A stretch of 64,000 nucleotides of DNA from a virus. Below are positions 2,561 to 29,109 of this stretch, piece by piece; the first letter of the stretch is position 1, and each line of letters begins with the position of its first letter. The DNA lies in IMG/VR virus record IMGVR_UViG_3300045988_116799, positions 1-64,000 of that record, one strand, 5' to 3'. The translations under genes and the position numbers were made by a program. Below the pieces are notes generated by a model that saw nothing but the letters and a program-made list of their open reading frames with translations, searched no databases and was not told the DNA's origin.

Positions 2561-2590
2561 AAATAAGGTGTGGACTAACACACCTTATTT
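2561..2590. terminator. bidirectional stem-loop between convergent genes
   Basis: aaataaggtgtg / cacaccttattt, 12-bp stem with 6-nt loop, A/T runs on both sides; overlaps the integrase stop. Confidence 0.6.
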
Positions 2591-3760: not shown

Positions 3761-3782
3761 AAAATGTATCTCCTTTATTTGT

Positions 3783-3805
3783 TTGCACGCTTTTTGCACG
3801 TTTTG
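3783..3805 (+). repeat. 23-nt direct repeat, copy 1 (TTGCACGcTTTTTGCACGTTTTG)
   Basis: Matches 3992..4014 at 22 of 23 positions; each copy contains two TGCACG units 11 nt apart. Confidence 0.6.
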
Positions 3806-3864
3806 AGATAAAGAATGTGCATAATTGCGTTGGTTTGACAATCGTTCATAAGTAAATACTATCG

Positions 3865-10686: not shown

Positions 10687-11111
10687 AGCAAATCTTCCCA
10701 AGGAATAGGCATACCATTGTGGCAGCAATCAGCATAAAAGCGGTTGAACACAAAACCGTCCTTTTGGTCTACATCGTCTATTGTGTCCTTTACATATTGC
10801 GCCAAGCTCGCTTCGTCCTTTATGGACTTGCCCCAAAAGTCAGCCTTACACATGTTTGCTACATACACATGGTCATAGCCGACAAGGTTTTCAAGAGTCA
10901 GTCCATTTGTCTGCATCATTTCCTCTACCTTGTCCTTGCTTATAGGCTCAATCGGCTCTTCTTTACCGCTCGCCTTGTTAACCTTGCGCATCCGACCGAC
11001 CGCCCACTCGCACATCTTCTTGTTGAAATGATAGCCGTTATATCTGAGATAAGCTATCATTCCTTCTGGCTTCAAATCGTAGACATCTAAAGGCATTTTA
11101 CATTTTCCCAT
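10683..11111 (-). CDS. hypothetical protein
   Basis: ORF track, ATG start. Confidence 0.6.
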   Translation of the reverse strand: MGKCKMPLDVYDLKPEGMIAYLRYNGYHFNKKMCEWAVGRMRKVNKASGKEEPIEPISKDKVEEMMQTNGLTLENLVGYDHVYVANMCKADFWGKSIKDEASLAQYVKDTIDDVDQKDGFVFNRFYADCCHNGMPIPWEDLL

Positions 11112-15675: not shown

Positions 15676-16239
15676 TCACTTGCATATCCCCAACGCTCTC
15701 TTCGCTCTCGCCAGATACCCGCACCGTTCCTTCAATCCGTTCTGACCGCCGTTTATCTTCTTCGTGATTTTCACCACGTCGTCGTTGTCTGCAAGTATGT
15801 TCAGACCGTGCGTCTTCCACCACCACATCGAGCTTTTCACCGCACCCAAAGGCTTCTCCAGCAGCTCAGGATTCGCCATCACGTCGCCCTTGCAGTAAGC
15901 TGAGCGGTTATAAGCGTCATAATTCGAGCGTCCAGTAATCTGAATCAGACCCCTGCCACGGTACTTGTAGCCGTCGCCGTCCCTCTGTGGAGTGTTCCCA
16001 AGCATCTTCGCCAGTTTCCCCGTATCGTACTTGTCAAAGTAGCCCTTGCTGCCCTGTTCCACCGTCCACCTCAGCTCACCGCTCTCATGTGCTATCTGAG
16101 CCAAGTAGTGAGCCATGCGCAGATAAGTGTCAATCTCGAACACTTCCGCATAGCTGTTGATATACGAGAGGAATTTGTCAATCCTGCTCGCAGCTGTAGG
16201 CATAATCTGCAACAGCTGCACCTTAGTAACCTTTACCAT
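15676..16239 (-). CDS. GH19-type endolysin
   Basis: AHYLAQIAHESGELRW and YRGRGLIQITGRSNY motifs of glycoside hydrolase family 19 lysozymes. Confidence 0.85.
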   Translation of the reverse strand: MVKVTKVQLLQIMPTAASRIDKFLSYINSYAEVFEIDTYLRMAHYLAQIAHESGELRWTVEQGSKGYFDKYDTGKLAKMLGNTPQRDGDGYKYRGRGLIQITGRSNYDAYNRSAYCKGDVMANPELLEKPLGAVKSSMWWWKTHGLNILADNDDVVKITKKINGGQNGLKERCGYLARAKRALGICK

Positions 16240-16261
16240 TCTCTTTTCTTTTTTAAATATT

Positions 16262-16594
16262 TCACTTTTTTACTATATATTCTCTCCATGCATATTTGTT
16301 CCTCAGATCCAAATATATCAAGTTAGGCTCGTAAGTGTATGCCTCCCTTTCGAAAGAGACGGCTCTGTAAGCCTTGTGGCAGTCTCTGAGCATTGCCAAC
16401 TTGATTAGCCACTCCACCAGATACCAAACGTAATACAACACATACCCCATTTCCTTCATCTGGGCAGTATGTATCATTTCGTGGTTGATGTCCGTCTCCC
16501 TCATCGTGCATCCCTTGCGCACGAACAGCACTCCAAACAGGTTAATCGCCTTGAAGCCCGGAAAGGGAATGATGCTGTTATATATCACCTTCAT
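16262..16594 (-). CDS. small HExxH-motif protein
   Basis: INHEMIHTAQM motif; ORF track. Confidence 0.55.
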   Translation of the reverse strand: MKVIYNSIIPFPGFKAINLFGVLFVRKGCTMRETDINHEMIHTAQMKEMGYVLYYVWYLVEWLIKLAMLRDCHKAYRAVSFEREAYTYEPNLIYLDLRNKYAWREYIVKK

Positions 16595-16595
16595 A

Positions 16596-16651
16596 ACTCA
16601 ACATTTAACATTTAACATTTAACACTCAACATTTAACATCCAACACTTACC
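16596..16651. repeat. tandem heptamer array (8 units: ACTCAAC, ATTTAAC x3, ACTCAAC, ATTTAAC, ATCCAAC, ACTTACC)
   Basis: Read directly; fills the whole spacer between the stop at 16647 and the start at 16594. Confidence 0.85.
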
Positions 16652-17123
16652 CCACCGTGCTCCAATACGTCAGCAGCACCATCCATATCGCCGTCACCTC
16701 CGCCATAAGCCACGGATGGTCGTCCTCGCTCCTACATGCCCAGTACACTGCATACCACCCTAATAATGCAACCACAATCCTCCAGTTCACCGTAAGACAC
16801 CATCCGACGCTCGCCACAGCCGATATTATAGCACCCGTCTTATGCACCTTCCTCTCGCTCTCATCCAGGAACCTCGGCACAGCACCCACGAACATCAGCC
16901 CTGCACAAGCCAAGAAAGCAAGGCACTGCACACCCAGTCCGCTGTCAAGCAAGCACACCATCATCATTGCACCGAATGCAATCATCACCAGCTGAAACAC
17001 CCAACCTCTCTTGCCAAGCAAGTAGTAGATAGTGCTCACCATATCCGGCACACCGTACTTATTAATCACCACGCAGAGCATCGCTATAAACAGCAGCTCT
17101 GCAACAAAACTCAATACTACCAT
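16647..17123 (-). CDS. multi-pass membrane protein
   Basis: ORF track; about five hydrophobic segments. Confidence 0.65.
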   Translation of the reverse strand: MVVLSFVAELLFIAMLCVVINKYGVPDMVSTIYYLLGKRGWVFQLVMIAFGAMMMVCLLDSGLGVQCLAFLACAGLMFVGAVPRFLDESERKVHKTGAIISAVASVGWCLTVNWRIVVALLGWYAVYWACRSEDDHPWLMAEVTAIWMVLLTYWSTVG

Positions 17124-17126
17124 ATT

Positions 17127-17215
17127 CTTAAAGTTAAAAGTTAAAAGTGAAGAGTGAAAAATCCATGTGCTCTCTTAACTATCGGATTCTTCACTTTTCA
17201 CTCTTCGTTTTTCAC
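17127..17215. repeat. heptamer-built imperfect inverted repeat
   Basis: CTTAAAG, TTAAAAG, TTAAAAG, TGAAGAG, TGAAAAA on the left and YTTCACT-type units on the right. The arms around 17144-17164 and 17184-17204 pair imperfectly across a 19-nt centre. Confidence 0.7.
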
Positions 17216-17803
17216 TTAAACACTCATTTCCAGCATCTTTGGATAGCCTGCGGTATAATCATACCCAAGTACCTCCTCAACCGTGCTCATTTCCGCTACC
17301 GCCTTCTTGTGCGCAGCCGTAACGTTGAAGCACTCAAGGGCATACATCTCCAGTGCCGAGAGCAGCTGTATCGCCTTGTCGCACTCCACCACCAGCTTCA
17401 CATCGCCCAGCCACAGCGTCGTTGTAGCCTGTCCCATGGCCTTCGCAATGGTCGTCGAGTTCATCAGTCCTACACGCGTAGCCTTGTCGAGCCACACACG
17501 CTGTCCGTTGAGGATAAAGCCGTTGACGGCAGAAGACGTGTCATGCTTCTCAATCTCCGCAAGCACCATCTTCTGTGCGGCAGCAGTAAGAGCTGCCTCC
17601 GAAGTCATGCCGCCAGTCTCCAGGCGCACACCGTCATACACCCACACCTTGCGTTCCACCACAGCCCACATGTCTTTCAAGTCAGAACTAAAAGTTTCCG
17701 GACGTTCTATTTGCGTCTTCTCCTGACCGTTGATAAGCAGCAACACAACACCATCGCCAACAGTCAATCGTGGCTGTGCCTCGCTAAAATAATATTTCTC
17801 CAT
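17216..17803 (-). CDS. hypothetical protein, possibly a tail-fibre-associated (DUF4376-like) domain
   Basis: ATG at 17803 (the listed start is TTG at 17809). The pattern INGQ..WLDKATRVGL...LWLGD...AIQLLSALEMYALECFNVTAAHK...YDYTAGYP resembles DUF4376 from memory. Confidence 0.55.
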   Translation of the reverse strand: MEKYYFSEAQPRLTVGDGVVLLLINGQEKTQIERPETFSSDLKDMWAVVERKVWVYDGVRLETGGMTSEAALTAAAQKMVLAEIEKHDTSSAVNGFILNGQRVWLDKATRVGLMNSTTIAKAMGQATTTLWLGDVKLVVECDKAIQLLSALEMYALECFNVTAAHKKAVAEMSTVEEVLGYDYTAGYPKMLEMSV

Positions 17804-17813
17804 AATCAAAATA

Positions 17814-17834
17814 ATTTAACATTTAACACTTAAA
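17814..17834. repeat. heptamers ATTTAAC, ATTTAAC, ACTTAAA
   Basis: Same unit as the array at 16596..16651; lies between the RT stop and the next start. Confidence 0.75.
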
Positions 17835-17836
17835 AT

Positions 17837-19222
17837 TCAGCATTCGATATACTCCATCTGATTAGTCGAGCCTTCAAAGATATATCCGCACTCGTCCACA
17901 ATCCTCACGTCCTCCAACGGCAGCAAGGTCTTCTTGCCATATTCCTTCTCTGCTTCCACCATCCACGCCACGATACCCATCATGCCACCATGCACCTCTC
18001 TGGCTATTGTCTTGCCCGTCAGCTCACCATCAGCAGTCACCTCCGGCATACCGATAAGCATCTTTATCCAATTAGGTTCGCCCGTTTTCTCGCTCTTGCG
18101 TATCTCGTAGTCGAAGACAGTGAACGCCTGTCCGCTACGTGCCAACTCCAGTGGCTTTATATTCGGAGCGTCCATCTTGCGGTCTATGCGTATCTTCTTT
18201 GTCAGTTCTCGTAGCTTCATATCTTTCTCAATTTTCACCATCTCTCCGAATCCGTCAGTATGACGCATCAGTCCGAAGTAGCTGCCCCACGAATTATCGT
18301 TATTGCACATTCTCGCTCTCAATAGCGTGTCTTTGCGTATAAGGCAATAGCCCTTGTTCGAGTCCGTCACGCTCTTGTCGTTGTTGCGTATCACCCTATA
18401 ACCGCAGAAGTCAATCCCTCGCTTGTCGTTGATGTCGGTAATCCTTGTATCGCCACGCTTCGCCCTCATCTTCAGCTCATACCACCAGTACTGCCTTATC
18501 CTCCACTTCATCCGTTGCGCTTCCTCCCTTGTTCGGCAAGCCACCATGCAATTATCTGCATAGCACAATCGCCATTCAGTGTTTCGGCACAGCCACTCAT
18601 GGAATCTCAGCATCAGTATATGGTGAGCAAGCGGACTCGTCGGTGTGCCTACAGGCAGTTGCCCGTCAACAAAGCACAACTCCACGGCAAAGTCTATCAG
18701 CCACTTGTCACCAATAAGGTATTTCAGCTCCTTGCGCAGCACGCTCGGCTTCACGTGCATATAGCATTTTCGTTGATCGGCAGTCACTACCCAGTCCATT
18801 TCGCGCAGATCGTAAAACAGGTGCTTCACTCTTGGAAGAACATAGTTGCTTTTCAGCTCCTTGTGCTTTGCCGACGGAGTAATACCGCACCCTTCCTTGC
18901 AGTTAAGCGACACCAACGGGTCGCGTCTGCGGTATATCGGCTCCAACTTGTTCTTCAGCAGATGTTCATACACTAAAGTTCTGAACGTAGGCGCGTCGAT
19001 ATGCCTCACCTTCTTGTTGTTGTTCACCTTGGTCAGCTTCCAGTACTTGATGTCCTCATGCCAGCTTCCATCTTTGAGATGTTGTTCAATACTTGCGCAT
19101 AGCCCTTTTACATCCTTCAATGCCTCCGCCACCTCTGGGCGTTTCTTTCTGCCCTTAGCGGCACTCTCCACTGCTCTGAGGTAGTCGTCAGCAACGAAGG
19201 GTATGTAGTTGGGTCTATGCAC
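17837..19222 (-). CDS. DGR reverse transcriptase (divergent)
   Basis: RT motifs: AAKGRKKRPEV (N-terminus), VVTADQRKCY (motif A Asp), QLPVGTPTSPLAHHIL (motif B), CYADNCMV (motif C), GIDFCGYRV (motif E). GTG start. Lies 220 nt downstream of the TR. Confidence 0.9.
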   Translation of the reverse strand: MHRPNYIPFVADDYLRAVESAAKGRKKRPEVAEALKDVKGLCASIEQHLKDGSWHEDIKYWKLTKVNNNKKVRHIDAPTFRTLVYEHLLKNKLEPIYRRRDPLVSLNCKEGCGITPSAKHKELKSNYVLPRVKHLFYDLREMDWVVTADQRKCYMHVKPSVLRKELKYLIGDKWLIDFAVELCFVDGQLPVGTPTSPLAHHILMLRFHEWLCRNTEWRLCYADNCMVACRTREEAQRMKWRIRQYWWYELKMRAKRGDTRITDINDKRGIDFCGYRVIRNNDKSVTDSNKGYCLIRKDTLLRARMCNNDNSWGSYFGLMRHTDGFGEMVKIEKDMKLRELTKKIRIDRKMDAPNIKPLELARSGQAFTVFDYEIRKSEKTGEPNWIKMLIGMPEVTADGELTGKTIAREVHGGMMGIVAWMVEAEKEYGKKTLLPLEDVRIVDECGYIFEGSTNQMEYIEC

Positions 19223-19447
19223 GTTAATAATATGTTTTGTGCGGATTGCTCCGTTGTTAATAATCAGTGTCGGGCTAAAAAGTTGACGGAACTGTCTGCC
19301 CGTCAGAATGTCTCTCGGTCACGTTCGCCGCATCACGTACAGCCATCGTGCTACGCTCACATCCCTTGTCTTTGATATTTTCTGCTTCTCCTGAGCGAGA
19401 GTGGTGTTCCCGTGTTATTGGTTCTGCATCATTTATGATGCCCGACG

Positions 19448-19556
19448 TTGGGCAGAACCGCCATTATTCACGTTCGTATTAGCAGCCGAGTTGTTCGCAT
19501 TCAGATACCGAGGCGAACAATTCGCATTATTCGCATTGCCACGAAAGCGCACGGCT
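19448..19556 (-). repeat. DGR template repeat (TR)
   Basis: Aligns without gaps to 19814..19922 (offset 366). Every mismatch is a T on the + strand, which is an A in the coding sense. Confidence 0.9.
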
Positions 19557-19743
19557 CGGAGACACCAACCTCTTTAGCCATCATCTATATGGATAGCGTC
19601 ACCTCTCATGCAGGCTTCAGAGGCTTCGGCCCTCATGCCGAGCTTGTTCTGGTTTTGAGGAAATATTTTGTCTTGATTCATTTTATTCTATCTTTTAAAC
19701 CACTATAAAGTTACTAATTTTGTTTCTGATTGCCAAAGACATG

Positions 19744-19760
19744 GCGCGGTTGCACCGCGC
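19744..19760. promoter_or_regulatory. GC-rich hairpin downstream of the VR
   Basis: gcgcggt-tgc-accgcgc, 7-bp stem with 3-nt loop, 36 nt past the target-gene stop. Confidence 0.6.
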
Positions 19761-19800
19761 TGCACAACGTTGCACTAAGTTGCACCCGGCTGCGCCTATT
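19751..19800. repeat. five phased 10-nt units starting TGCAC (x4) and TGCGC
   Basis: TGCACCGCGC, TGCACAACGT, TGCACTAAGT, TGCACCCGGC, TGCGCCTATT, with an exact 10-nt period, running up to the target stop codon at 19796-19798. Confidence 0.8.
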
Positions 19801-22672
19801 GCACGATGCGACACTGGGCAGAACCGCCATAAAACACGTGCGGAATAGCAGCCGAGTGGTTCGCATTCAGAAACCGAGGCGAACAATACGCATGACTCGC
19901 ATCGCCACGAAAGCGCACGGCTATGCGCACGCGCTGGTTGAGAGTAGAACTCCAGTACGGAAATGCCCACGAGTAGAAGCATTGCCAACTGCTAAGATTT
20001 CCTCCATCGGCAATCTTGTATGGGATATACCCAAGTCTATTCTTACAGTAACCGTCCGACAAGATAGGAGAACCGAAAGTACCAATCTTACCATACGTAG
20101 ACTCGAAGCCGAATGTGCCAAGATTGTTCTTGCTGACACCAGACTCATTCACCCACTTTGACTGGTTGGGTTCAAGATAGAAATCTATGTAGTTCTTTAA
20201 CAGCTGCTCGGCATTGTAGCTGCCGTTGGTCTGCACCTTGTTAGTGCCCACCATCTCACAGCCGCCTCCCCAATAAGCAAAGACATCACCACTGACGTTC
20301 ATGCCGTGCATGAGACTCATTCTAAGACTTAGCTCAAGGTCGTATGTAGCAAGCGTGTTAGCGTCTTTGTAGCCCTTACAAGTGCCAATCTTCTTGCGAT
20401 ACACCTTACAGTTCATCACTCCGTCAGCCAAGCCCTTTACGCCCGTTATGTTCTTATAGCGGTACGTTACGCCATACGCCTCATACTCGGTGTTCTCAGC
20501 AATTCCGAACTCTGCTGCCCACGATGCTGCCATCTGGCTCTCCATGCACTGCTCCTTTGAACGATATAAATTCACGAACCACGAAAAGTTATTCTTTTCC
20601 AACTTTTCGTTATGTCCAAATGGTGTGCTATCGCCAAATCCGCGATATGTCCATTCTTCCGTACCCTGTTCCTTGCATCGCACACCGCCATTGTCGAGCC
20701 ATGTATTCTCCGAGTTGCAAGCGTCATTGCTTGATATGCCCGAACCAAACAAATTATTGTCGTGCAAGTACTTTGTTCCATACAGCAGCTCCATACACAG
20801 TATAAAGGTGTTGACACCATGAAAACCTCCTTCGGCAAAGGGCAGTGGCGCATTGGTGTCAGCATTGTTGGCACGAGCCTTTTGCATGTTGCTCACCTGA
20901 GTCATATCCGATATACGAGGATATGTTCTACCATCGTTTACGTACATCGAACACATATTCTCGCCTGCTCCGCTCGGTCCGTTGGTGGTGTTTGTGTCAC
21001 CCACGGCATAGACGTAGAAGAAGTTGCGTGTCTTGTTGCCTACCGTAGTAACAGGACAAGGAGACAGAGCCGTTCCAAGCAGAGGGTATCTGCCAGTATC
21101 AATGCCATCATAGCGCACCTGACGCTTGAAGATGCCCGTCAACACCTTACCGCTATCGCCAGTCTGACGGTCTACTGGATATAGGGTGTCGTAGCGACCG
21201 ATCATCACCGAATACTTTGTCTCTGTGGTCTCCCAAGGCAACAGCTGACGCACCTTGTTACCCTCTCCGTCGTACAAGTCTACCAAACCAAGCGAGTTGT
21301 ACACCTCTGTTGCATCGTAAGGATGTGCGCCAGCCTTATCTGTCACAACAACACCATTTTTCAGCGTCAATGGAGTTGTGTGCTCGGCATCGGTATAGAG
21401 TTGTACATCACACGCAGCACGCATCGCCTCCGTAATACCCACGGTAGGCGCAAACGCACCCGACACAAAGCGGAAGTGATTATTGTCCATCAACTGACCT
21501 ACAGGGTGTGTAGCCTCGCCAGTGTTGTCGGTTTGGTCGATAAGGTACGGATGCCAATCGCCCAAGAACTCCTTGTTTCCCTTGCAGTTCTTGAAGTGAG
21601 GGTCGCCCGTCACCTCGTCGTTCTCGCCTACATAGTAATCCTTAACGTTCTCCTTCAGTTCGGCAATGTCAGCAGCGTTCTGTGCCACAGCCTCCTTAGT
21701 CTCCTTCATGTCCACTACAAGCTGATTCACCTTCTCGCCCTCACCGACTTTCACACTCTTGCTTTCACCCTCGCGATTGGTAACAGTCAGCAATCCGTCG
21801 TCGGCAAGAGTGGCATTGACGTTCTCGGCTGCTCTCACCGCATCCACTGTCGAGGCCGCACCCTTGTTGGCAGCATCAGCAGCAGCGTTGGCAGTGTCAG
21901 CAGCCGACTGTGCAGACATCACAGCCTGCTGGCTGGCATCAGCACGCTCCTGCTCAGCCGATACTCGCAGCTTCTCGTTAGCCATACGTCGCGCCTCCGC
22001 TTCCGCTCTCAGCTTCTCGTCGTTGCCTCGTGTGTTCTCAGCCTCCGTGCGGTTCGTCTCGTTGCTCGCACGCTGCGTCTCAGCCTCCGTGCGCTGAGTT
22101 TCAGCCTCTGCACGCTCATGCTCAGCCTTCACGCGCTCCTGCTCATTAGCTGTTGCCGTATTGTTAATAGCCACAGCCTTATCCACCTCCGCCTTAGCCT
22201 TACGCAGCGTGTCGGTAAGCTGTAGGTTGAGAGCTTCGCCCTGCTCAGCAGCCTCCTGCGCACGACTCGCCTGAGCCTGTGCCGATGCCGATGCCGAAGT
22301 CGCAGCCGTAGCCGCTGCATCCACCTTGTCCAAAGCAGCCTGTAGCCCAGCCGTAGCTGTAGTCACGCTCTCCGCAGCCTTAGCCGCTTCCGCTGCCTTG
22401 TCGTTAGCAGTTTTAGCAGCAGCGTTGGCAGCCGTAGCAGCCTCCTGCGCACTCTGAGCACCGTCGTGAGCGCTCTTAGCGTCCACGAGCAGGCTCCACC
22501 ACTCGTCCTCACCCACAGGCTCGTGCCCGATGTTGCCGTCCGCCTTGCTCAGATAGGTGTTGCCGCCGTGCGTCACAAGCTGTAGCTTACAGTAAGTCAC
22601 ACTCGCGTCGTATGCCCCTTTAGGGTGCATGCCGACACTACCCATGTCAATGTACTTCTTTTCCATATTCAC
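19796..22672 (-). CDS. tail fibre / receptor-binding protein, DGR target
   Basis: 958 aa; Ala/Glu-rich coiled coil with AEAETQRTEAETQR repeats; large C-terminal globular part ending in the VR (…RFRGDASHAYCSPRFLNANHSAAIPHVFYGGSAQCRIVQ). Confidence 0.85.
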   Translation of the reverse strand: MNMEKKYIDMGSVGMHPKGAYDASVTYCKLQLVTHGGNTYLSKADGNIGHEPVGEDEWWSLLVDAKSAHDGAQSAQEAATAANAAAKTANDKAAEAAKAAESVTTATAGLQAALDKVDAAATAATSASASAQAQASRAQEAAEQGEALNLQLTDTLRKAKAEVDKAVAINNTATANEQERVKAEHERAEAETQRTEAETQRASNETNRTEAENTRGNDEKLRAEAEARRMANEKLRVSAEQERADASQQAVMSAQSAADTANAAADAANKGAASTVDAVRAAENVNATLADDGLLTVTNREGESKSVKVGEGEKVNQLVVDMKETKEAVAQNAADIAELKENVKDYYVGENDEVTGDPHFKNCKGNKEFLGDWHPYLIDQTDNTGEATHPVGQLMDNNHFRFVSGAFAPTVGITEAMRAACDVQLYTDAEHTTPLTLKNGVVVTDKAGAHPYDATEVYNSLGLVDLYDGEGNKVRQLLPWETTETKYSVMIGRYDTLYPVDRQTGDSGKVLTGIFKRQVRYDGIDTGRYPLLGTALSPCPVTTVGNKTRNFFYVYAVGDTNTTNGPSGAGENMCSMYVNDGRTYPRISDMTQVSNMQKARANNADTNAPLPFAEGGFHGVNTFILCMELLYGTKYLHDNNLFGSGISSNDACNSENTWLDNGGVRCKEQGTEEWTYRGFGDSTPFGHNEKLEKNNFSWFVNLYRSKEQCMESQMAASWAAEFGIAENTEYEAYGVTYRYKNITGVKGLADGVMNCKVYRKKIGTCKGYKDANTLATYDLELSLRMSLMHGMNVSGDVFAYWGGGCEMVGTNKVQTNGSYNAEQLLKNYIDFYLEPNQSKWVNESGVSKNNLGTFGFESTYGKIGTFGSPILSDGYCKNRLGYIPYKIADGGNLSSWQCFYSWAFPYWSSTLNQRVRIAVRFRGDASHAYCSPRFLNANHSAAIPHVFYGGSAQCRIVQ
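19814..19922 (-). repeat. DGR variable repeat (VR)
   Basis: Encodes the last ~36 residues of the 958-aa protein and differs from the TR only at TR adenines. Confidence 0.9.
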
Positions 22673-22699
22673 TTGTTATTATAAAAATCGTTCTTCGTA

Positions 22700-23482
22700 T
22701 TAGTTCTGTGCTACGAGCAGATGTCCTTCTTCCGACAATTTGAATCTGTCCATATCGCCCTCCGTGATACAGGCAATCAGCTTACCTTCTACCACGTCAA
22801 ACGTCGGGTAATCAAACGAACCCTTGGAGTATTTGTCTGTTTTTTCATATTCTCCCGTCTCCTCATTCCACTTCATCCAATATCCGTCCTCACCGATGAT
22901 GTTCGGATGGTCAGCCAGCGCCTTGGCACGGTCGCCCTGCTCGTTAGCATATCCGGCAGCGGTATTAGCCGATATGGTAGCAGCGCCAGCATCCCCTACA
23001 GCCTTGTCTATGCGCACGTCCACCTCGCTCAGTTTAGCGTCCACATTGCCGATAGCCTCGCCAGCGCTCTCAATCAGCTTGCCCAGCTCCACGCTCGGAG
23101 GCAGCACAACGATAGCCGTGTCCATCTCCACCGAGTCCTCGCCCTCTATCACCTCGCCAAACGCCGTATCACCCTTTGCATTATTGTCCACGAGCATAAT
23201 CTGCTCATACTCGTTACTGCGCCAAGAACAGCCGAACAGCTTTCCGTGTACCTCCAGGGCGTATGAGCCGAGTGCCATTTCCGAGCTTCGCACCGTAGCC
23301 TCTATCAGCGAGTCGTCTTCCGCACTAATCGCGAACGTCAGCTTTCTGCGCCTGAAGGCATTCACAAGATTCACCTCCACCTCCTCACAGGCAGGCAACG
23401 GAAACTTCTCCGTCTGTCCGCCCACGATTTTACGCACCGGGATGCGAAGCGTAAAATCATTACCTCTTACAATCTTTTTCAT
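22700..23482 (-). CDS. tail-associated protein
   Basis: ORF track; lies between the tail tip protein and the fibre. AAGYANEQGDRAKALADHPNIIGEDGYW resembles fibre N-terminal modules. Confidence 0.55.
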   Translation of the reverse strand: MKKIVRGNDFTLRIPVRKIVGGQTEKFPLPACEEVEVNLVNAFRRRKLTFAISAEDDSLIEATVRSSEMALGSYALEVHGKLFGCSWRSNEYEQIMLVDNNAKGDTAFGEVIEGEDSVEMDTAIVVLPPSVELGKLIESAGEAIGNVDAKLSEVDVRIDKAVGDAGAATISANTAAGYANEQGDRAKALADHPNIIGEDGYWMKWNEETGEYEKTDKYSKGSFDYPTFDVVEGKLIACITEGDMDRFKLSEEGHLLVAQN

Positions 23483-23505
23483 AGTTCCATCATTTATAAA
23501 TAGCC

Positions 23506-26500
23506 TTAATACTCACTCATTCGGCCTGTAATGTACGTGCAATTCCAATCCGTGCCGTCATAGATAAACAGAGATATTTGTCCTCGCGAGTTAGACAGAC
23601 GCTGTTGCGTCACATCTGTTCCTCCTGCGGTTCGGATATTCTTTTTGTTGCTCTTTATGTAGACCTTTCCGCCACCCTTCTGTATCACTGTCACCTGCTG
23701 ACCTGCGATTGGTTGTGTCGGTAACGATACGGTGATTGCGTAACTTTCATTTTTAGCTACCACAAGCCCCGTACTGTTGCCCATGCCCGAATCACTTCCG
23801 GTGTCATGCACATGATTTACAAACACACCACGGATAGCCGCATTAGTCTCCATCACGATGCCTCCTTGAGGTTTGTAAAGATATACTGCCGGAGTCTCAC
23901 CCCCGAATGGCGAATATACATAAGCAGTCAGTTGTGCTGTACCAAACGTAGCACCGGGTATCGCGTAGCCCGTCGGCAAGCCCCAATCGTTTGTGGCGCC
24001 TCTTGCAACGGTGTAAGCCGACTTGCCCAGCCAGATGCCAGTATAATTGCCGGCACCGTCACCACAACCGAACTCAGTCACCTGTGCTCCAGTACGCATA
24101 TATCCTGAAATTGGGTTGCCGCTGCGCACAAAAGCAGGTGTGTACTGTATCATGCTGCCGCTTATATTTACGTTTCCTACTGTCGTGTCGTTAGCTGTGA
24201 TAATGTCGCAACCAAGATTTTCATCGTGCTCAATCGCCCAAATTCCGAATCTACTGCTGCCTGTCACATTCAGATTCCCTGCTTCCACGCTCTCGGTTCT
24301 CAGAGTGTCGATTACCGCTTGCTTAGCTTTTATAAGATTAGCATTAATAGCACCGTCCTTGAACACAGCGGTCTCTTTACCGCTTTGGTCTCTGAACACC
24401 GTCTTGTCTGCCGTCAGCGTTATCTGCTTGCTGTTAATATCAATGCCAGCAGCAAGCAGTCGCGACGACATAGAGCGACTTGTCGTGTACTCCGTCACCG
24501 TAGCGCCGTATTCCAGCTTCGGCTGAGATACATAGAGGTCACAACCCTGCATACAGCGTATAAGCACGTATTTAGGCAGATTGCCGCCTACCACTCTCCA
24601 GTGCACCCAGTATCGTTTCCATACATAGTCTTCCTTAAACTCCACCTGAGCGTTGCCGTCTGCTGCTTGATGTTGATTAGGACCGTCTACTCTGTCTAAT
24701 ACCTCAGTATATACAACTTGATTACCGTCTTTGTATAAGTACGCTACGAACTTACCTCCGATATTACCCTTTGCCATAAACGAGAGCATATAGTCCTGTC
24801 CTTTTTTCACCACATCGTCACCTAAAGTCCACTCCAGCATATTAATGCTATTGACATTAGTAGCATTTCTAATGTCAGTATTCAGCGTAGGCAGACCGTT
24901 ATACGTCTGCCTAATTTTTTCGTCAGCGCTGTCATTTTTAGGATGTAGAGTCGAATAGCTTTCATCACGCCAAGTCAGATTGCCTCCTACATGCAACGTA
25001 TCAGTATTATCAAGCAAATTGCCCCCGACATAATCCGCATCCTCCTTCGACAGCGACCAACCTACATATTCGTCGCCCTCGACGAGCATAGGCTGGCTGA
25101 GGTAAAATGCGCCATCTTTATCAAGATTTGTAAGTATGTCTACCTGTATGTATTCATAAGGAGCATCAGGTTGCACTGTTATAACTCCTTCAATACGTTC
25201 CCATTGTGTTCCAACCGTTTTCTGCGCCACAAAGCCACTGCCATTAGGCCCTTTATATCCTTCTGCCGAATCGACACTTGTAGCATTCTTTGTCCAAACC
25301 GCCTCTAATGCCACAGTAATGGGTGTCGTCGCTTTTGCCATCACGGAAAAATGGTATTTCTTACCCTTTTCGACTTTGATATTACGACCGCCTACATACG
25401 TATTATAACACCATTTTAGGCCGGTGAAACCTTTTTTTGAACAACAACACGAATTAACTCCGTTATATTGTTCAAGTATAGAAATAAAGGAATCACCAAC
25501 GAGAAACACTCCTTCACCCTGCCTTCTCAGCGCACTCCCAACAAGCAAATTCTTCCTGCCCACAGCCGTTTCGCTCACCTTCAGCGAAATATCCCGTGCC
25601 GTCTGCTTGATAGTCGAAGTGTAGTCCGTCAGCTCGCCCTGTGTCTTCAGAGGTAGGTTATTGTATTTGTTGCTAATCTCAGAGAAACTACTTGTCAACC
25701 CGTACATATTCATCTCGATGCCGCCCCACACCGCCGACACTTCAATGTCCACCTTCAGCGTGGTATAGATATAGCTGTCCGTACCATCAGCAGCTTTATA
25801 CCTCGCAGCTAAAGTGACACTCGCAGTAGTCACTGGCACCAGAATGGTCGTGCCGTCAGATGCCGTGACAGTATGTTGAAAGACATCCTTGATACGGACG
25901 TAAAAACCATCGTTGTCTGCTTCCACTACCGCGTCACAACCTCTCGGTTGCGCGGAAGGGTAGCCGAGAATATGACTCATACCCCAGTCCTCACCGTCAC
26001 GACTGAATTTTACCCGTGCTACACTGTCCGAATCTATCACAGCAGACACATTGCCGTCGCTGTCCCGTTCAGTAGAGAGTACGAGAGGATTAGGATTCCA
26101 TAACGCAACAATAGCGCTCTCACCGTCCTTACCTGGTTTGCCTTGCGCTCCTGGTTGTCCGTCCGCTCCTGGCTCTCCTTGCGCTCCCTGAGGGCCACGG
26201 TCGCCAGTATCACCCTTCTCGCCCTTCTCCGCCTTCATCACCAGCTGCCAGTCGGCGTTGCCCTCCTTAGGCTCCGTAGTGCTGCCCTCGCTGTTAGTAC
26301 ACAGCCACACACCGTTATTATGCGAAACCTGGTCATAATAGCTGTAGCTCACACCATTCTGCCACTCGCCTCTGTAGTTCACAATGTGTATCGTGTCACC
26401 AGTAGGCGACACCCACTCAAACGACGTAGACACAAACTTACAGCCATCAGGCGAAACATAGAACACCTCGCAGCCCTCATGCGAATATCCCAAAACACCC

Positions 26501-29109
26501 TTATACGCCACAATACGAGGAGTGCCAGGCCCCGTCGTCTCCAGTATCATCACGCCCTGGCGGTCACGCTCGTTAGGATTCTGATTGCCGTCAAGCACAA
26601 TTGTGTCGCCAGCCATCGGCACGTCGCTGCCCAGCTCGCAGTTGTCCTTGGCTATCTCTATCCACCCGAACTTCTTGCCGTCATACAGCACATTGCCTTC
26701 CTCGTCAGTCAGCGCCACATTCTCATCGCTCACAGCCGTCACCAGTCGCCACCACGAGCGCGTCGGCTTCTGCTTGTTGGCAAGCCCGAACGTCTGGCAG
26801 CGGGCCTGGTCGCCCACACGCCACAAGTTCTGCGTAGCCGTAGTGCCGTCGTCGGCCAGCAGCCAGCAGCGCCAGCCTTTCAGCACGCCAGCCTCTATCA
26901 GCTCCTCAGTCTTGAATATCTTGCCGCCCGAACCGCTCAGGTACACATTGCCACCGGCATACGACAGCTTCCTCACCTCTAACTCTTGGAAAATAGCCTT
27001 GCCCCACACCTGTAGTTCGTGAATGTCAAGCCTATACTTGCCGTCGCCACGGTCTACGATGCCAAACCCCTGCTGTGTCGCCCCGTTATAGCCCAGTGAC
27101 ACGATACGTCGCAGCACAGCGTTGCCCAACACTGCATTACCCTCCGCATCGACACCCTTTTCACCGTCACCTATCTTAAGACCCTTCATAAAGCGTATCT
27201 GTCCCTGAGCAATATCGTCATATTGCTTCGACAGAAAGTACTTGCTGCCATATTTAGAGACGATACTATTAAATTGTGAACCAGAATAGCTACTGCCGTT
27301 ACCATTTGAACTATTAGCAATGATTGTCTGCACATCATCTTTTAATTGTGTGACAGTTCCCTTGTTCGCCTGATTGCCGACTGTGATTTCTTGAATAAAA
27401 TCATAATCCAGATTGGTCGTTACCTTTAAAATTCGAGTGTCAAGTGTATAACCTTGACCATCGCTATATTTTACCTTTTGTCCAATTTGTAATCTCGGAT
27501 TATTTGCTTCAAACACCTGCGGATATACAGAAAATTCGTAGTTGTTTAAATCTGAATTTAACCGTTCAATTTCTTTTATCGCTTTGTTCAACAATTTTTC
27601 TTGTGCGTCTTTCTGATATTGTTCAGACATCGCGATATTGTACAGGACAGTAATATTACAGCTTAAATTTGGCAAAGATTCGCCACGAGGTATCAACCTT
27701 TCATTTTCATTTGTCGGTATTATAAGATTATTCTCTTCTTGATAAATTATCTCATAGTCACCGCTCAAAATATTAAAATTGGCTGAATCTACATCATCAG
27801 AATCATGCGCTGAATAATTGTCCTTGTGATATTTCAGCTCAAAACCAACATGCTCTCCATTTGTTCCACGACCTGCCAACGGGGTAGACAATGCATTAAT
27901 GTTCGTATTCGCTTCGAATGAGCATGACAATGTTTTGCCGTTAACAATTAAATTGTCGGTTATTTCAAAGTCATACCAATAATGTGTTACCCCATCGTCT
28001 ACAGTTTTATTCACAAGTTTTTTGGTCTTGTCTTCTGTATTTGTGCAGTACGCAAGGCGCATATACCACACCGTGAAGGTTTTATACGTTGCAACACTGC
28101 CGTCAGCATTATATGTAAGTGGTATTTTCTTTTTCGTAGTATCATCAAGAACATATTTTTGTCTTCCTCTAACTTTGTAAACATAAGTGTTTAGCGAAGG
28201 GAAAACGTCAGAGAAATTCAGTACTTTTGTCAGCAAAGGTTCTTTGGTCTTGTCTTTGCGCAAGTCTATCGTAGAGAAATCGTCTACAGTGTATTCAACT
28301 TCTTTACCGTTAATGCTGACAATCCCTTTTCCGCTTGCTAATTGCAATCGTATATCACTTGAAGAAACGTTCTCTCCTAAACTGTTTGTCTGTGTAATAT
28401 TACGTGTACCACCAAACACGGTGTATGCATTATAGTAATTCTCTTTGCTTTCTGTGACAGATGGAGTTCCTATATTTCTTCCTACTTCTAACGGCACAGC
28501 AACTTCATCCAAGACAACTTTGCCAAGATAAATGTCTTCGTTGTCGTAATCTATATGCCATTCACACGTATCTCCTTCCGCATTTGCTATAGAAGACAAA
28601 GCAGACAATACGTCATTATCAGAAAACGATACGGATAAAGAATTTTTTAATTCACCAGACAAAACTGACTTCCATCCGCATTTGCCAAACTGAATATCAT
28701 TGTTTAGGAAATCGCATATTTTACCCATTATAACATCAGGCGTACCAACGAAAGTCCAGTTAGTCTGTTTTATGGTCTCGTTTTGCGAGTTTTTTGTTTT
28801 TATATAGAAAGGTATTTTGCCTAACAACATTTTCGGATGCTGAAACTCCGGCGTATACTTCCACGACATTTCGTCAGTTTGCACTGGCTCGTAAGGTTCA
28901 AGCAGAGAAAAACGCTGTGTCACCTTGCGTGTCTGGTCTATATAATACGTGTGTACAATGTAAGCTCCGACGGGTAAAATGATTTTACAAGCAGCACTAA
29001 AAGACAACGAGATAAAGTCGGACTTTGAAAGCTCTTCTTCTCGTTGTGCTTCTTTTGTGATAGGCGCTTGCATTATTATCTCGCCGTCAAGATTGTATAT
29101 GTTTATCAT
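23506..29109 (-). CDS. giant tail tip / host-specificity protein with a collagen-like segment
   Basis: 1867 aa, downstream of the tape measure gene; an 11-triplet Gly-X-Y run is encoded at 26122..26223. Confidence 0.8.
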   Translation of the reverse strand: MINIYNLDGEIIMQAPITKEAQREEELSKSDFISLSFSAACKIILPVGAYIVHTYYIDQTRKVTQRFSLLEPYEPVQTDEMSWKYTPEFQHPKMLLGKIPFYIKTKNSQNETIKQTNWTFVGTPDVIMGKICDFLNNDIQFGKCGWKSVLSGELKNSLSVSFSDNDVLSALSSIANAEGDTCEWHIDYDNEDIYLGKVVLDEVAVPLEVGRNIGTPSVTESKENYYNAYTVFGGTRNITQTNSLGENVSSSDIRLQLASGKGIVSINGKEVEYTVDDFSTIDLRKDKTKEPLLTKVLNFSDVFPSLNTYVYKVRGRQKYVLDDTTKKKIPLTYNADGSVATYKTFTVWYMRLAYCTNTEDKTKKLVNKTVDDGVTHYWYDFEITDNLIVNGKTLSCSFEANTNINALSTPLAGRGTNGEHVGFELKYHKDNYSAHDSDDVDSANFNILSGDYEIIYQEENNLIIPTNENERLIPRGESLPNLSCNITVLYNIAMSEQYQKDAQEKLLNKAIKEIERLNSDLNNYEFSVYPQVFEANNPRLQIGQKVKYSDGQGYTLDTRILKVTTNLDYDFIQEITVGNQANKGTVTQLKDDVQTIIANSSNGNGSSYSGSQFNSIVSKYGSKYFLSKQYDDIAQGQIRFMKGLKIGDGEKGVDAEGNAVLGNAVLRRIVSLGYNGATQQGFGIVDRGDGKYRLDIHELQVWGKAIFQELEVRKLSYAGGNVYLSGSGGKIFKTEELIEAGVLKGWRCWLLADDGTTATQNLWRVGDQARCQTFGLANKQKPTRSWWRLVTAVSDENVALTDEEGNVLYDGKKFGWIEIAKDNCELGSDVPMAGDTIVLDGNQNPNERDRQGVMILETTGPGTPRIVAYKGVLGYSHEGCEVFYVSPDGCKFVSTSFEWVSPTGDTIHIVNYRGEWQNGVSYSYYDQVSHNNGVWLCTNSEGSTTEPKEGNADWQLVMKAEKGEKGDTGDRGPQGAQGEPGADGQPGAQGKPGKDGESAIVALWNPNPLVLSTERDSDGNVSAVIDSDSVARVKFSRDGEDWGMSHILGYPSAQPRGCDAVVEADNDGFYVRIKDVFQHTVTASDGTTILVPVTTASVTLAARYKAADGTDSYIYTTLKVDIEVSAVWGGIEMNMYGLTSSFSEISNKYNNLPLKTQGELTDYTSTIKQTARDISLKVSETAVGRKNLLVGSALRRQGEGVFLVGDSFISILEQYNGVNSCCCSKKGFTGLKWCYNTYVGGRNIKVEKGKKYHFSVMAKATTPITVALEAVWTKNATSVDSAEGYKGPNGSGFVAQKTVGTQWERIEGVITVQPDAPYEYIQVDILTNLDKDGAFYLSQPMLVEGDEYVGWSLSKEDADYVGGNLLDNTDTLHVGGNLTWRDESYSTLHPKNDSADEKIRQTYNGLPTLNTDIRNATNVNSINMLEWTLGDDVVKKGQDYMLSFMAKGNIGGKFVAYLYKDGNQVVYTEVLDRVDGPNQHQAADGNAQVEFKEDYVWKRYWVHWRVVGGNLPKYVLIRCMQGCDLYVSQPKLEYGATVTEYTTSRSMSSRLLAAGIDINSKQITLTADKTVFRDQSGKETAVFKDGAINANLIKAKQAVIDTLRTESVEAGNLNVTGSSRFGIWAIEHDENLGCDIITANDTTVGNVNISGSMIQYTPAFVRSGNPISGYMRTGAQVTEFGCGDGAGNYTGIWLGKSAYTVARGATNDWGLPTGYAIPGATFGTAQLTAYVYSPFGGETPAVYLYKPQGGIVMETNAAIRGVFVNHVHDTGSDSGMGNSTGLVVAKNESYAITVSLPTQPIAGQQVTVIQKGGGKVYIKSNKKNIRTAGGTDVTQQRLSNSRGQISLFIYDGTDWNCTYITGRMSEY

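What the first reader, a model, noticed from the sequence alone, without database searches (positions are those of the whole stretch)
17837..22672. Complete phage DGR: reverse transcriptase, TR, and VR at the 3' end of a 958-aa tail-fibre gene
Seen directly: 19449..19556 (TR) aligns without gaps to 19815..19922 (VR), offset 366, over 108 nt. There are 12 mismatches, and every one has T in the TR on the + strand, which is A in the coding (-) sense. So 12 of the 26 TR adenines are substituted and no C, G or T position differs. A 13th difference of the same kind sits at the 3' edge (19448 vs 19814). In frame, the TR reads VRFRGNANNANCSPRYLNANNSAANTNVNNGGSAQ and the VR reads VRFRGDASHAYCSPRFLNANHSAAIPHVFYGGSAQ. 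Nine of the 11 AAY Asn codons in the TR are altered at their first or second base. The VR is the extreme C-terminus of the gene in the tail-fibre position, the TR lies 235 nt downstream, and an RT gene starts 220 nt after the TR. Adenine-specific TR-to-VR differences with AAY codons are the defining signature of diversity-generating retroelements (Bordetella phage BPP-1 Mtd is the paradigm). This is the strongest system-level signal in the window. It implies programmed hypervariation of the receptor-binding tip.
Basis: partly seen in the sequence, partly recalled or inferred. Interest (0 to 1): 0.88.

Follow-up and report, generated by a model that had tools for sequence, protein, structure and literature searches.

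The report
Active phage diversity-generating retroelement (DGR)
A gut-phage reverse transcriptase and its template repeat rewrite the last 35 codons of a tail protein at adenine-templated positions; the system is real and clearly active in related phages, but it belongs to a kind already described.

Summary
TR 19449-19556 and VR 19815-19922 (both read on the minus strand) align without gaps. All 12 mismatches fall on the 26 TR adenines (P = 3.5e-9).

Relatives confirm activity. Three IMG/VR phages that are 82-88% identical carry the same TR but different VRs. Across 14 loci of this subclade, 178 of 338 TR adenine sites differ from the VR, against 18 of 1146 other sites. Among 121 close homologues of the target there are 116 distinct VR peptides, and variation is confined to adenine-containing TR codons.

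The element has the avd-less order target-VR, TR, RT. Its RT belongs to the GxxxSP family published in 2024 for epsilon crAss-like phages (crAssE-Sib: RT 46% identical, target 40%). Here the host phage is different: temperate, long-tailed, with related contigs of about 100 kb.

Three details go beyond the finding. The RT subclade has YADN instead of YxDD in its catalytic motif, yet is active. The RT carries a roughly 120-aa C-terminal domain found only in this family. The RNA around the TR has covarying helices that parallel the Bordetella phage DGR RNA, and GCA-loop hairpins follow the VR.

A C-type-lectin fold for the target could not be confirmed here.

Verdict: new member of a known kind, moderate interest.

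The parts
19796..22672 (-). DGR target gene, 958 aa. It has an N-terminal domain, an Ala/Glu-rich repeat stalk, and a roughly 670-aa globular C-terminal part that ends in the VR.
   Evidence: ORF. It is 40% identical over residues 285-953 to the crAssE-Sib 'putative tail fiber protein', which carries an annotated VR/IMH. It lies downstream of the tape measure gene (29554-35079) and of a 1867-aa tail protein with collagen-like repeats. The best BFVD fold matches are phage proteins, including one named 'Receptor binding complex'.
19815..19922 (-). Variable repeat (VR). It encodes residues 918-953, and the stop codon lies 16 nt downstream.
   Evidence: 12 of 12 mismatches to the TR fall at TR adenines. 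There are four different VRs in four phages that share the same TR. There are 116 distinct VR peptides among 121 homologues.
19815..19829 (-). IMH-like box at the 3' end of the VR (TGGCGGTTCTGCCCA), identical to the TR. VR-specific sequence follows from 19814 downward.
   Evidence: The box is identical in the VR and TR of all four phages. The VR reads CCCAGTGTCG and the TR reads CCCAACGTCG in all of them. The adenine in this box (Gln953 codon CAR) is invariant in 121 homologues.
19744..19760 (-). G+C-rich hairpin 3' of the VR: GCGCGGT-GCA-ACCGCGC. It is the last of an array of GTGCAA / GCA-loop motifs spanning 19744-19805.
   Evidence: In relatives the stem changes in a compensatory way (CCCGGT-GCA-ACCGGG). 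Every clade of this RT family has one to four N-GCA-N' hairpins after the VR, with unrelated stem sequences.
19788..19796 (-). Mini-hairpin GGC-GCA-GCC directly after the stop codon. It is the conserved GGCGCAGCC motif.
   Evidence: The window as a whole predicts 0.015 such hairpins per 70 nt; two are observed here.
19557..19690 (-). Conserved non-coding leader upstream of the TR. It includes hairpin 19627-19640 and the strand 19557-19567 (TGGTGTCTCCG), which pairs with the spacer.
   Evidence: It is nearly 100% identical in four phages that are otherwise 82-88% identical. The long-range duplex with the spacer covaries across clades.
19449..19556 (-). Template repeat (TR), non-coding, 26 adenines, 11 AAY codons in the VR frame.
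   Evidence: It is 118/118 identical in the window and in three IMG/VR relatives.
19270..19448 (-). Spacer RNA between the TR and the RT. Elements: 19420-19427 GCAGAACC (complement of the TR 3' box at 19452-19459); 19402-19412 (pairs with the leader); P1 hairpin 19384-19396; conserved single strand ...UAUCAAAGACAA 19366-19381; P2 19359-19365 with 19305-19311; P3 hairpin 19285-19304 followed by a U tract at 19275-19284.
   Evidence: Conservation. P1 covariation. Alternative P2 and P3 helix sequences across clades. Cognate versus non-cognate leader:spacer duplex scores. P3 plus U tract is flagged as terminator-like.
17837..19222 (-). Reverse transcriptase, 461 aa. Motif 4 is GTPTSP (18632-18649). 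Motif C is YADN (18551-18562). A family-specific C-terminal domain is encoded by about 17840-18190.
   Evidence: Pfam RVT_1 E = 2.6e-9. A profile built from homologues finds the BPP-1 DGR RT 8ub7_A as the best PDB match, E = 4.5e-10, covering profile positions 9-327. The AF2 model has pLDDT 89, and Foldseek gives 8ub7_A E = 3e-14 with TM 0.76. The C-terminal domain occurs only in this RT family.

Best explanation
This is a functional diversity-generating retroelement of a temperate, long-tailed phage of gut Bacteroidales, arranged as target(VR) - TR - RT with no accessory gene.

Proposed mechanism, with inferred steps marked:
- An RNA running from about 130 nt upstream of the TR to about 170 nt downstream is made (extent inferred from conservation).
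- That RNA folds so that the TR is looped out between two duplexes. One joins the leader to the spacer. The other joins the TR 3' box GGUUCUGC to the spacer GCAGAACC. This parallels the 'cPRT stop' and template:primer duplexes of the Bordetella phage BPP-1 DGR RNA (the first duplex is shown by covariation; the second is a candidate).
- The RT copies the TR from that point, misincorporating opposite template adenines (inferred from the outcome).
- The cDNA replaces the VR. The shared GC-rich box and the GCA-loop hairpins 3' of the VR mark the recipient site (inferred by analogy with IMH and the cruciform of BPP-1).

The shown result is unlimited variation at 13 codons, mostly AAY, at the extreme C-terminus of a probable receptor-binding tail protein, while the TR stays constant.
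For: - Adenine-only TR/VR differences: 12/12, P = 3.5e-9.
- The TR is 118/118 identical in four phages that are 82-88% identical overall, while their four VRs all differ: 49 differences at A sites and one elsewhere.
- Across the 14 loci of this RT subclade, 178/338 A sites differ against 18/1146 non-A sites. Fourteen of those 18 come from one locus, L017.
- 121 homologues of the target (87-93% identical) have near-zero column entropy over the last 400 residues, except at codons whose TR codon contains A. They give 116 distinct VR peptides, and AAY sites show only residues reachable by changing the two adenines.
- The RT is intact. Its closest solved relative by profile is the BPP-1 DGR RT.
- About 65 of the 80 IMG/VR loci with this RT family have a TR 150-330 nt upstream of the RT and an A-mismatched VR 255-477 nt further up. 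In at least seven of the loci without a call, too little upstream sequence was fetched to hold a VR.
- The flanks of the TR are conserved and carry covarying helices. GCA-loop hairpins with covarying stems follow the VR in all clades.
- The closest annotated relative, crAssE-Sib (OR575929.1), has VR, IMH, TR, IMH* and RT annotated in the same order (PMC11054128).
Against: - Motif 4 is GTPTSP, not the DGR signature [LIV]GxxxSQ.
- Motif C is YADN, so the second aspartate of YxDD is missing.
- No Avd or other accessory gene lies within about 10 kb, whereas the BPP-1 RT is inactive without Avd (10.1101/2023.10.23.563531).
- My structure model of the target gave no C-type-lectin match.
- Single-sequence folding energies of the spacer RNA (z = -0.9) and of the hairpin DNA (z = -0.3) do not differ from shuffles. 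The structural claims therefore rest on comparison only.
- No read-level data were available to show variation within one population.
- cDNA synthesis, priming and homing are all inferred.
Confidence: 0.93

Rival explanations
1. It is a fossil DGR. The cassette diversified the gene in the past, but the RT of this subclade is now dead because the second catalytic aspartate is lost (YADN). The present VR is therefore frozen.
For: YADN replaces YADD in the window and its subclade, while most of the family keeps YADD. No Avd gene is present.
Against: All 14 YADN loci carry different VRs with 7-20 adenine-site changes. Four of them share an identical TR. The diversification therefore postdates the D-to-N change, which is shared by RTs down to 59% identity (P0011) and by P0112 at 50%. 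The RT ORF is intact, and the TR flanks are conserved far above the genome background.
Confidence: 0.04
2. It is a chance or ordinary duplication. A 108-nt segment of the gene's 3' end was copied downstream and the two copies drifted apart, with no retroelement involved.
For: None beyond the existence of a direct repeat.
Against: All 12 differences fall on one base of one copy (P = 3.5e-9). The same asymmetry appears in about 65 independent loci. One copy is invariant and the other hypervariable in relatives.
Confidence: 0.005
3. It is an active DGR, but not self-sufficient. It depends on an Avd-like or other accessory factor encoded outside the 64-kb window (related contigs reach about 100 kb) or by the host.
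For: BPP-1 bRT needs Avd. The window covers only part of the genome. 74% of DGRs have avd (PMC5758913).
Against: Avd genes normally sit inside the cassette. Wu et al. found no remote avd in genomes with avd-less DGRs, and one whole RT lineage lacks it. The crAssE-Sib paper, which analysed that genome and its DGR cassette, does not mention Avd or any accessory gene. This RT has an extra conserved C-terminal domain that bRT lacks.
Confidence: 0.15
4. The diversified protein is not a receptor-binding tail fibre. It is another virion or secreted ligand-binding protein, such as a mucus or glycan adhesin.
For: There is no Pfam or NCBIfam hit. The function of the N-terminal PHROG family is unknown. 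My model has no confident similarity to a known receptor-binding fold in the PDB.
Against: The gene sits last in the tail module, directly after the tape measure gene, a 148-aa ORF, the 1867-aa collagen-repeat tail protein and a 260-aa ORF. The best fold matches are phage proteins, including one labelled 'Receptor binding complex' and several labelled tail collar fibre.
Confidence: 0.15

Closest known systems
DGR of phage crAssE-Sib and other Epsilonunovirus (epsilon crAss-like) phages. Babkin et al., Viruses 2024;16:513 (PMC11054128); GenBank OR575929.1.
   Same: It has the same RT family (46% identity over the full length, including the C-terminal domain) and the same GxxxSP motif 4. The target family is homologous (40% identity over about 670 aa). 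The order is the same: target-VR-IMH, then about 350 nt, TR-IMH*, RT. No accessory gene is annotated.
   Different: The host phage is unrelated: a long-tailed temperate phage with a tape measure gene and an integrase, whose related contigs are about 100 kb, against a 151-kb crAss-like podovirus. Motif C here is YADN, against YADD in crAssE-Sib. The target here has an additional 285-aa N-terminal stalk.
Bordetella phage BPP-1 DGR (mtd-avd-TR-brt), the paradigm.
   Same: Both show adenine-specific TR-to-VR transfer into the C-terminus of a tail protein. Both have a GC-rich box shared by the 3' ends of the VR and TR, followed by divergent sequence, and a G+C-rich inverted repeat after the VR. In both, the TR is flanked by required or conserved upstream and downstream RNA. 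The leader:spacer duplex, stem-loop, single-stranded stretch and further helices occur in the same order as the cPRT-stop, stem-loop, thumb ring and protein-binding elements of the BPP-1 RNA (searches compared). The RT core aligns with bRT over its whole length.
   Different: There is no Avd. The RT is 133 aa longer, with an alpha/beta C-terminal domain. It has GTPTSP and YADN instead of GxxxSQ and YMDD. Several GCA-loop hairpins replace one cruciform. The target has no detectable sequence similarity to Mtd.
Accessory-free DGRs (architecture A1, TR-RT core; avd-less 'Lineage 3') of Wu et al., NAR 2018 (PMC5758913).
   Same: The cassette consists only of target, TR and RT on one strand. Wu et al. 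proposed an Avd-independent mode of mutagenic homing for such elements.
   Different: I did not test whether this RT family falls inside their Lineage 3. Their survey relied on the canonical RT signature, which this family lacks.
Group II intron reverse transcriptases (e.g. GsI-IIC RT, PDB 6AR1).
   Same: They are the best Foldseek E-value for the RT model (2.8e-15) and share the GxxxSP form of motif 4. NCBIfam's best, sub-threshold, hit is the group II RT/maturase model.
   Different: There is no intron RNA (no Rfam hit) and no maturase or endonuclease domain. The NCBIfam score of 54.9 is far below the 300-bit cut-off. The RT is tied to a TR/VR pair in about 65 of 80 related loci.

Membership tests
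Diversity-generating retroelement (DGR) | A TR/VR repeat pair whose differences fall (almost) only at adenines of the TR | tested here: met
   12/12 in the window, P = 3.5e-9. 178/338 A sites against 18/1146 other sites over 14 related loci.
Diversity-generating retroelement (DGR) | The TR is invariant while the VR is hypervariable among close relatives (ongoing activity) | tested here: met
   An identical 118-nt TR with four different VRs. 116 distinct VR peptides among 121 homologues, with variation confined to A-containing TR codons. Variation within a single population was not testable because no reads were available.
Diversity-generating retroelement (DGR) | An adjacent reverse transcriptase of the DGR RT clade | tested here: inconclusive
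   An RT domain is present. The best PDB profile hit is the BPP-1 DGR RT (E = 4.5e-10), only slightly ahead of group II intron RTs. Foldseek ranks a group II RT first and bRT fourth. No phylogeny against the published DGR clades was made.
Diversity-generating retroelement (DGR) | RT motif 4 signature [LIV]GxxxSQ | tested here: not met
   Motif 4 is VGTPTSP in the window and GTP(T/A)SP in all 80 related loci. The same deviation is published for the crAssE-Sib DGR and makes myDGR miss it.
Diversity-generating retroelement (DGR) | Catalytic YxDD in RT motif C | tested here: not met
   YADN at 18551-18562. The motif is YADD in most of the family and YADN in the window subclade.
Diversity-generating retroelement (DGR) | VR at the 3' end of a protein-coding target, with a non-coding TR next to the RT on the same strand | tested here: met
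   The VR ends 16 nt before the stop codon of the 958-aa ORF. The TR lies 239 nt downstream and the RT starts 226 nt after the TR.
Diversity-generating retroelement (DGR) | IMH at the VR 3' end (a GC-rich box shared with the TR, then sequence that differs from IMH*) | tested here: met
   The 15-nt box TGGCGGTTCTGCCCA is shared. Downstream sequence is fixed and different in the VR and TR of four phages. Its function is not testable here.
Diversity-generating retroelement (DGR) | A G+C-rich inverted repeat (hairpin/cruciform) downstream of the VR and absent after the TR | tested here: met
   A 7-bp GCA-loop hairpin at 19744-19760 and a mini-hairpin at 19788-19796. Stems covary across clades. The single-sequence folding energy is not exceptional.
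Diversity-generating retroelement (DGR) | An accessory gene (avd, HRDC, MSL or CH1). Present in most DGRs but not all. | tested here: not met
   No such Pfam or NCBIfam hit in the ORFs from 9.8 to 23.5 kb, nor in the intergenic 35-aa ORF region. The RT C-terminal domain contains long beta strands, so it is not an Avd-like helix bundle. The rest of the phage genome outside the window was not examined.
Diversity-generating retroelement (DGR) | The VR lies in a C-type-lectin (or Ig-like) ligand-binding fold | tested here: inconclusive
GxxxSP DGR RT family (Epsilonunovirus type) | Full-length homology including the C-terminal extension, and GxxxSP in motif 4 | tested here: met
   46% identity over residues 5-460 to the crAssE-Sib RT. 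The alignment shows conserved C-terminal blocks NWIKCLIG and GYIFxGSTNQ.
Group II intron / retron | An associated intron or msr-msd RNA, and family-level RT scores | tested here: not met
   No Rfam family reaches threshold anywhere in the window. The NCBIfam group II RT score is 54.9 against a cut-off of 300, and the retron score is 18.9 against 235.

The most novel reading that the evidence does not exclude
The cassette represents an Avd-independent way of building the DGR ribonucleoprotein. A lineage-specific alpha/beta C-terminal domain of about 120 aa on the RT would take over the RNA-positioning role that pentameric Avd plays in BPP-1. Within this lineage, a subclade would perform adenine-mutagenic reverse transcription with a natural YADN active site that lacks the second aspartate of YxDD.
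Probability: 0.35. Interest if true: 0.55.

Novelty: new member of a known kind. Interest (0 to 1): 0.35.

Why it matters
It adds a clearly active, well-delimited example of the GxxxSP, avd-less DGR type, in a phage group unrelated to the crAss-like phages where that type was described. Standard DGR finders that require the GxxxSQ signature would miss it.

The relatives supply a large natural data set: a constant TR alongside more than a hundred distinct VRs. That is useful for studying which receptor-binding variants survive in the gut.

Three features are concrete handles on how DGR RTs prime and misread adenines without Avd: the active YADN subclade, the family-specific C-terminal domain, and a spacer RNA whose layout can be compared element by element with the solved BPP-1 RNP.

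Tried and rejected
- Megablast of 17000-23500 against the GenBank phage collection: no match. The phage is not represented there; its major capsid protein is only 25% identical to that of Bacteroides phage BS-TP2.
- Rfam at gathering thresholds over the whole window: nothing. tRNA scan: none.
- TR pattern with N at the adenines. In species-representative genomes: 0 hits. In JGI metagenomes: one contig of 102,237 bp, the same length as an IMG/VR contig already found (L002/L008) and probably the same one. The nucleotide-level sample of very close relatives is therefore small, and I used protein clusters instead.
- C-type-lectin test: AF2 model plus Foldseek against the PDB, and a profile search of PDB sequences, both negative or uninformative.
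- RNAalifold on a plain MAFFT alignment of the spacer recovered only P1, because the variable insert misaligns the rest. P2, P3 and the long-range duplex were analysed with scripts instead. No covariance model was built.
- My helix search for P2 has a search space large enough that a 5-bp stem alone is not significant. The argument rests on its fixed position after AAGACAA and after a conserved GAG, across clades.
- Single-sequence folding z-scores were not significant.
- The sigma-70 promoter scan found no more sites than shuffles do. Bacteroidales promoters are not covered by that tool.
- The 35-aa ORF in the TR leader was considered as a mini accessory protein and rejected as unlikely. Its conservation is at the nucleotide level, third codon positions included, and other clades have only about 140 nt between the VR and TR.
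- The RT C-terminal domain as a fused Avd: rejected on secondary structure, which shows three long beta strands.
- The literature search for 'YADN' with 'reverse transcriptase' found nothing relevant.

Full report
OBSERVATION. On the + strand, 19449-19556 and 19815-19922 align without gaps at offset 366. Of 108 positions 12 differ, and at each one the TR copy has T, which is A in the coding (minus) sense. With 26 adenines among 108 bases, the chance that all 12 differences fall on adenines is 3.5e-9. No third copy exists in the window. The ORFs are as described: RT at 17837-19222 (461 aa, GTG start) and target at 19796-22672 (958 aa), both on the minus strand.

Two corrections are needed. The gaps are 239 nt (stop codon to TR) and 226 nt (TR to RT). 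The '13th difference' at 19448/19814 is a fixed boundary difference rather than a mutagenesis event (see below).

TEST IN RELATIVES. A pattern made of the TR with N at every adenine found three IMG/VR contigs. They are 82-88% identical to the window across 15.7-25 kb. Their TR is identical to the window's over 118 nt, while all four VRs are different. Within the repeat proper, the four VRs show 49 differences from the TR at adenine sites and one T>G elsewhere. The A>G plus C>T pair at the 3' edge is the same in all four VRs.

With all 14 loci of the subclade, each compared with its own TR, 178 of 338 adenine sites differ against 18 of 1146 other sites. Fourteen of those 18 come from one locus, L017, whose TR 5' part does not align.

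At the protein level, 120 homologues of the target's C-terminal part are 87-93% identical to it. Over the last 400 residues, column entropy is near zero except at residues 924, 926, 927, 929, 934, 936, 938, 939, 943, 944, 945, 947 and 948, the codons whose TR counterpart holds an adenine. Two further sites differ between sub-lineages. There are 116 distinct VR peptides among 121 sequences. At AAY sites only residues reachable by changing the first two bases occur. Gln953, whose CAA codon lies inside the 3' box, never varies.

THE PARTS. The RT has a Pfam RVT_1 domain. A profile of 71 homologues finds the BPP-1 DGR RT (8ub7_A, 328 aa) as the best solved relative (E = 4.5e-10), aligned over profile positions 9-327. 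The AF2 model (pLDDT 89) matches it with TM 0.76. A group II intron RT has a marginally better E-value.

About 130 residues extend beyond the end of bRT. After a long helix they form three long beta strands and further helices. An exhaustive search of 1.84 billion representative proteins finds this domain only at the C-terminus of RTs of about 450 aa, or in fragments. It is not an Avd-like helix bundle.

Motif 4 is GTPTSP throughout the family. Motif C is YADD in most members but YADN in the window, in P0001-P0011 (down to 59% identity), in P0112, and in all 13 close IMG/VR loci. Those loci show fresh adenine-site variation, so the YADN enzyme evidently works. I found no paper mentioning this motif in an RT.

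No Avd, HRDC or other accessory gene is detectable in the ORFs between 9.8 and 23.5 kb.

THE TARGET. Residues 285-953 are 40% identical to the crAssE-Sib protein annotated as a putative tail fibre, which carries a VR and IMH. The gene is the last of the tail module. That module runs: tape measure 29554-35079, a 148-aa ORF, a 1867-aa tail protein with collagen-like repeats, a 260-aa ORF, then the target. The RT follows, then a DUF4376 protein and a lysis cassette with a GH19 endolysin.

NON-CODING ELEMENTS. From about 130 nt upstream of the TR to about 200 nt downstream, the four phages are almost identical although they differ by 12-18% elsewhere. I used 80 loci found with the RT profile in IMG/VR. 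About 65 of them have a TR 150-330 nt upstream of the RT and an adenine-mismatched VR 255-477 nt further up. These loci let me compare several clades whose flanks share no overall similarity. The recurring elements are:

(i) A duplex between the 11-16 nt just upstream of the TR and a spacer segment 23-36 nt after the TR. In the window this is 19557-19567 with 19402-19412, with one C·A mismatch. Cognate pairs score 25.3 on average against 15.2 for non-cognate pairs. Only 1% of non-cognate pairs reach the cognate median.

(ii) Directly after it, hairpin P1 with conserved loop YNGGARN and a covarying stem. Five to nine of 16 sequences are changed on both sides at three pairs.

(iii) A conserved single strand ending in AAGACAA.

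(iv) Helix P2, which starts right after AAGACAA and closes right after a conserved GAG. At least six unrelated helix sequences occur.

(v) Hairpin P3, again with unrelated stems, usually followed by a U tract.

In the window clade the spacer also holds GCAGAACC (19420-19427), the exact complement of the TR 3' box GGTTCTGC. Other clades have only 4-5 bp at the corresponding place, so this pairing is a candidate only.

The order (TR-3':spacer duplex, leader:spacer duplex, stem-loop, single strand, further helices) is that of the BPP-1 DGR RNA seen by cryo-EM: template:primer duplex, cPRT stop, stem-loop, thumb ring, protein-binding RNA (10.1101/2023.10.23.563531).

Downstream of the VR, every clade has one to four hairpins of the form N-GCA-N', preceded by GGCGCAGCC, which is itself GGC-GCA-GCC. 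The stems differ between clades. The window keeps two perfect ones (19788-19796 and 19744-19760), and the GTGCAA motifs between them are decayed copies. This matches the position of the G+C-rich inverted repeat that promotes homing in BPP-1 (PMC5758913).

Single-sequence folding energies of these regions are not better than shuffles. The evidence is comparative only.

MECHANISM. Shown: the asymmetry and its restriction to adenines; TR constancy and VR hypervariability in relatives; an intact RT tied to such repeat pairs across a whole family; conserved and covarying RNA and DNA elements. Inferred by analogy with BPP-1: transcription of the leader-TR-spacer RNA; cis-priming next to the TR 3' box (consistent with the never-mutated adenine in that box); adenine-mutagenic cDNA synthesis; and replacement of the VR guided by the shared box and the downstream hairpins. 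Whether the RT acts without any partner is open. My preferred reading (0.35) is that the extra C-terminal domain substitutes for Avd.

CONTEXT AND NOVELTY. The window is part of a temperate long-tailed phage. It has an integrase at 2585-3841, a major capsid protein at 37665-38756, and a portal gene at 63058-63972. Related contigs are about 100 kb. It is not close to any GenBank phage. The RT family occurs in genomes and MAGs of Bacteroides, Parabacteroides, Phocaeicola, Prevotellaceae, Odoribacter and others.

DGRs in gut Bacteroidales phages are common knowledge, and the accessory-free architecture is catalogued. The GxxxSP RT family, with this target family and gene order, was published for epsilon crAss-like phages in 2024. 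The finding is therefore a new member of a known kind. The YADN active site, the family-specific RT domain and the RNA and hairpin layout are details I did not find described. Interest: 0.35.

Noticed in passing
window 18551-18562 (-): RT motif C reads YADN instead of YxDD. This is conserved in the whole subclade (14 of 14 loci; homologues down to 59% identity; also P0112), although those loci show fresh adenine-site variation. No paper with this motif in an RT was found.
   Followed up: partly
window 17840-18190 (-), RT residues ~345-461: Conserved alpha/beta C-terminal domain of the RT, absent from the BPP-1 RT. Among 1.84 billion representative proteins it occurs only in this RT family. Its function is unknown; it may replace Avd.
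   Followed up: partly
window 19574-19681 (-): A 35-aa ORF (MNQDKIFPQNQNKLGMRAEASEACMRGDAIHIDDG) lies inside the conserved TR leader. Its frame is kept in relatives, but conservation is at the nucleotide level and other clades lack room for it. It is probably RNA rather than protein.
   Followed up: partly
window ~16000-28000: G+C content is 47-54% in this block (tail-fibre genes, DGR, part of the lysis genes) against 35-45% on either side. This suggests a mosaic or recently acquired module.
   Followed up: no
window 59297-63055 (-): 1252-aa protein. Its N-terminal ~320 residues match PHROG families annotated as head morphogenesis and the family annotated 'Bxa ADP-ribosyl transferase' (E = 3e-79). 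It may be a virion-borne toxin or effector fusion.
   Followed up: no
window 22036-22128 (-), inside the target gene: Three to four 21-nt tandem repeats encode a 7-aa repeat (AEAETQR-like) in the Ala/Glu-rich N-terminal stalk. Most relatives' targets are about 807 aa against 958 here, so stalk length varies between phages.
   Followed up: partly
window 23506-29109 (-), repeats at 26132-26187: 1867-aa tail protein with collagen-like G-X-Y repeats, matching tail-fibre PHROG families.
   Followed up: no
window 16596-16649: Nested 7/14/28-nt tandem repeats (AACATTT) in the intergenic region between the 110-aa and 158-aa ORFs of the lysis region.
   Followed up: no
window 2585-3841 (-) and 6038-8062 (+): A tyrosine-integrase-like gene and an SbcC-like/recombinase gene. 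The phage is probably temperate.
   Followed up: no
window 9794-10282 (-) and 10683-11111 (-): Two paralogous DUF7841 proteins separated by a 139-aa ORF.
   Followed up: no
L003, L004 and L017, between the VR hairpins and the TR leader (corresponds to window ~19690-19740): Relatives carry tandem TTAGGA(A/G) repeats where the window has unique AT-rich sequence. The promoter region of the TR RNA is thus not conserved even though the RNA itself is.
   Followed up: no
window 19285-19304 versus 19444-19457 (-): In the window clade only, the P3 5' strand and loop (GACGGGCAGA) is complementary to the TR 3' box plus IMH* (TCTGCCC..CGTC). This gives an alternative fold in the minimum-free-energy structure, possibly a resting conformation or a coincidence.
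   Followed up: no
protein P0022 (MAG Bacteroidales), alignment A1: Some public gene calls extend the RT ORF upstream through the TR. The 'protein' then starts with a TR translation (…NNANNGNLSARYLNANNSAGNTN…), which is an annotation artefact to watch for.
   Followed up: no
L111 (Caecibacteroides pullorum AN421) and L088 (Parabacteroides faecalis AGMB00274): Cultured isolates carry members of this RT family (47-48% identity). They could serve as experimental systems.
   Followed up: no
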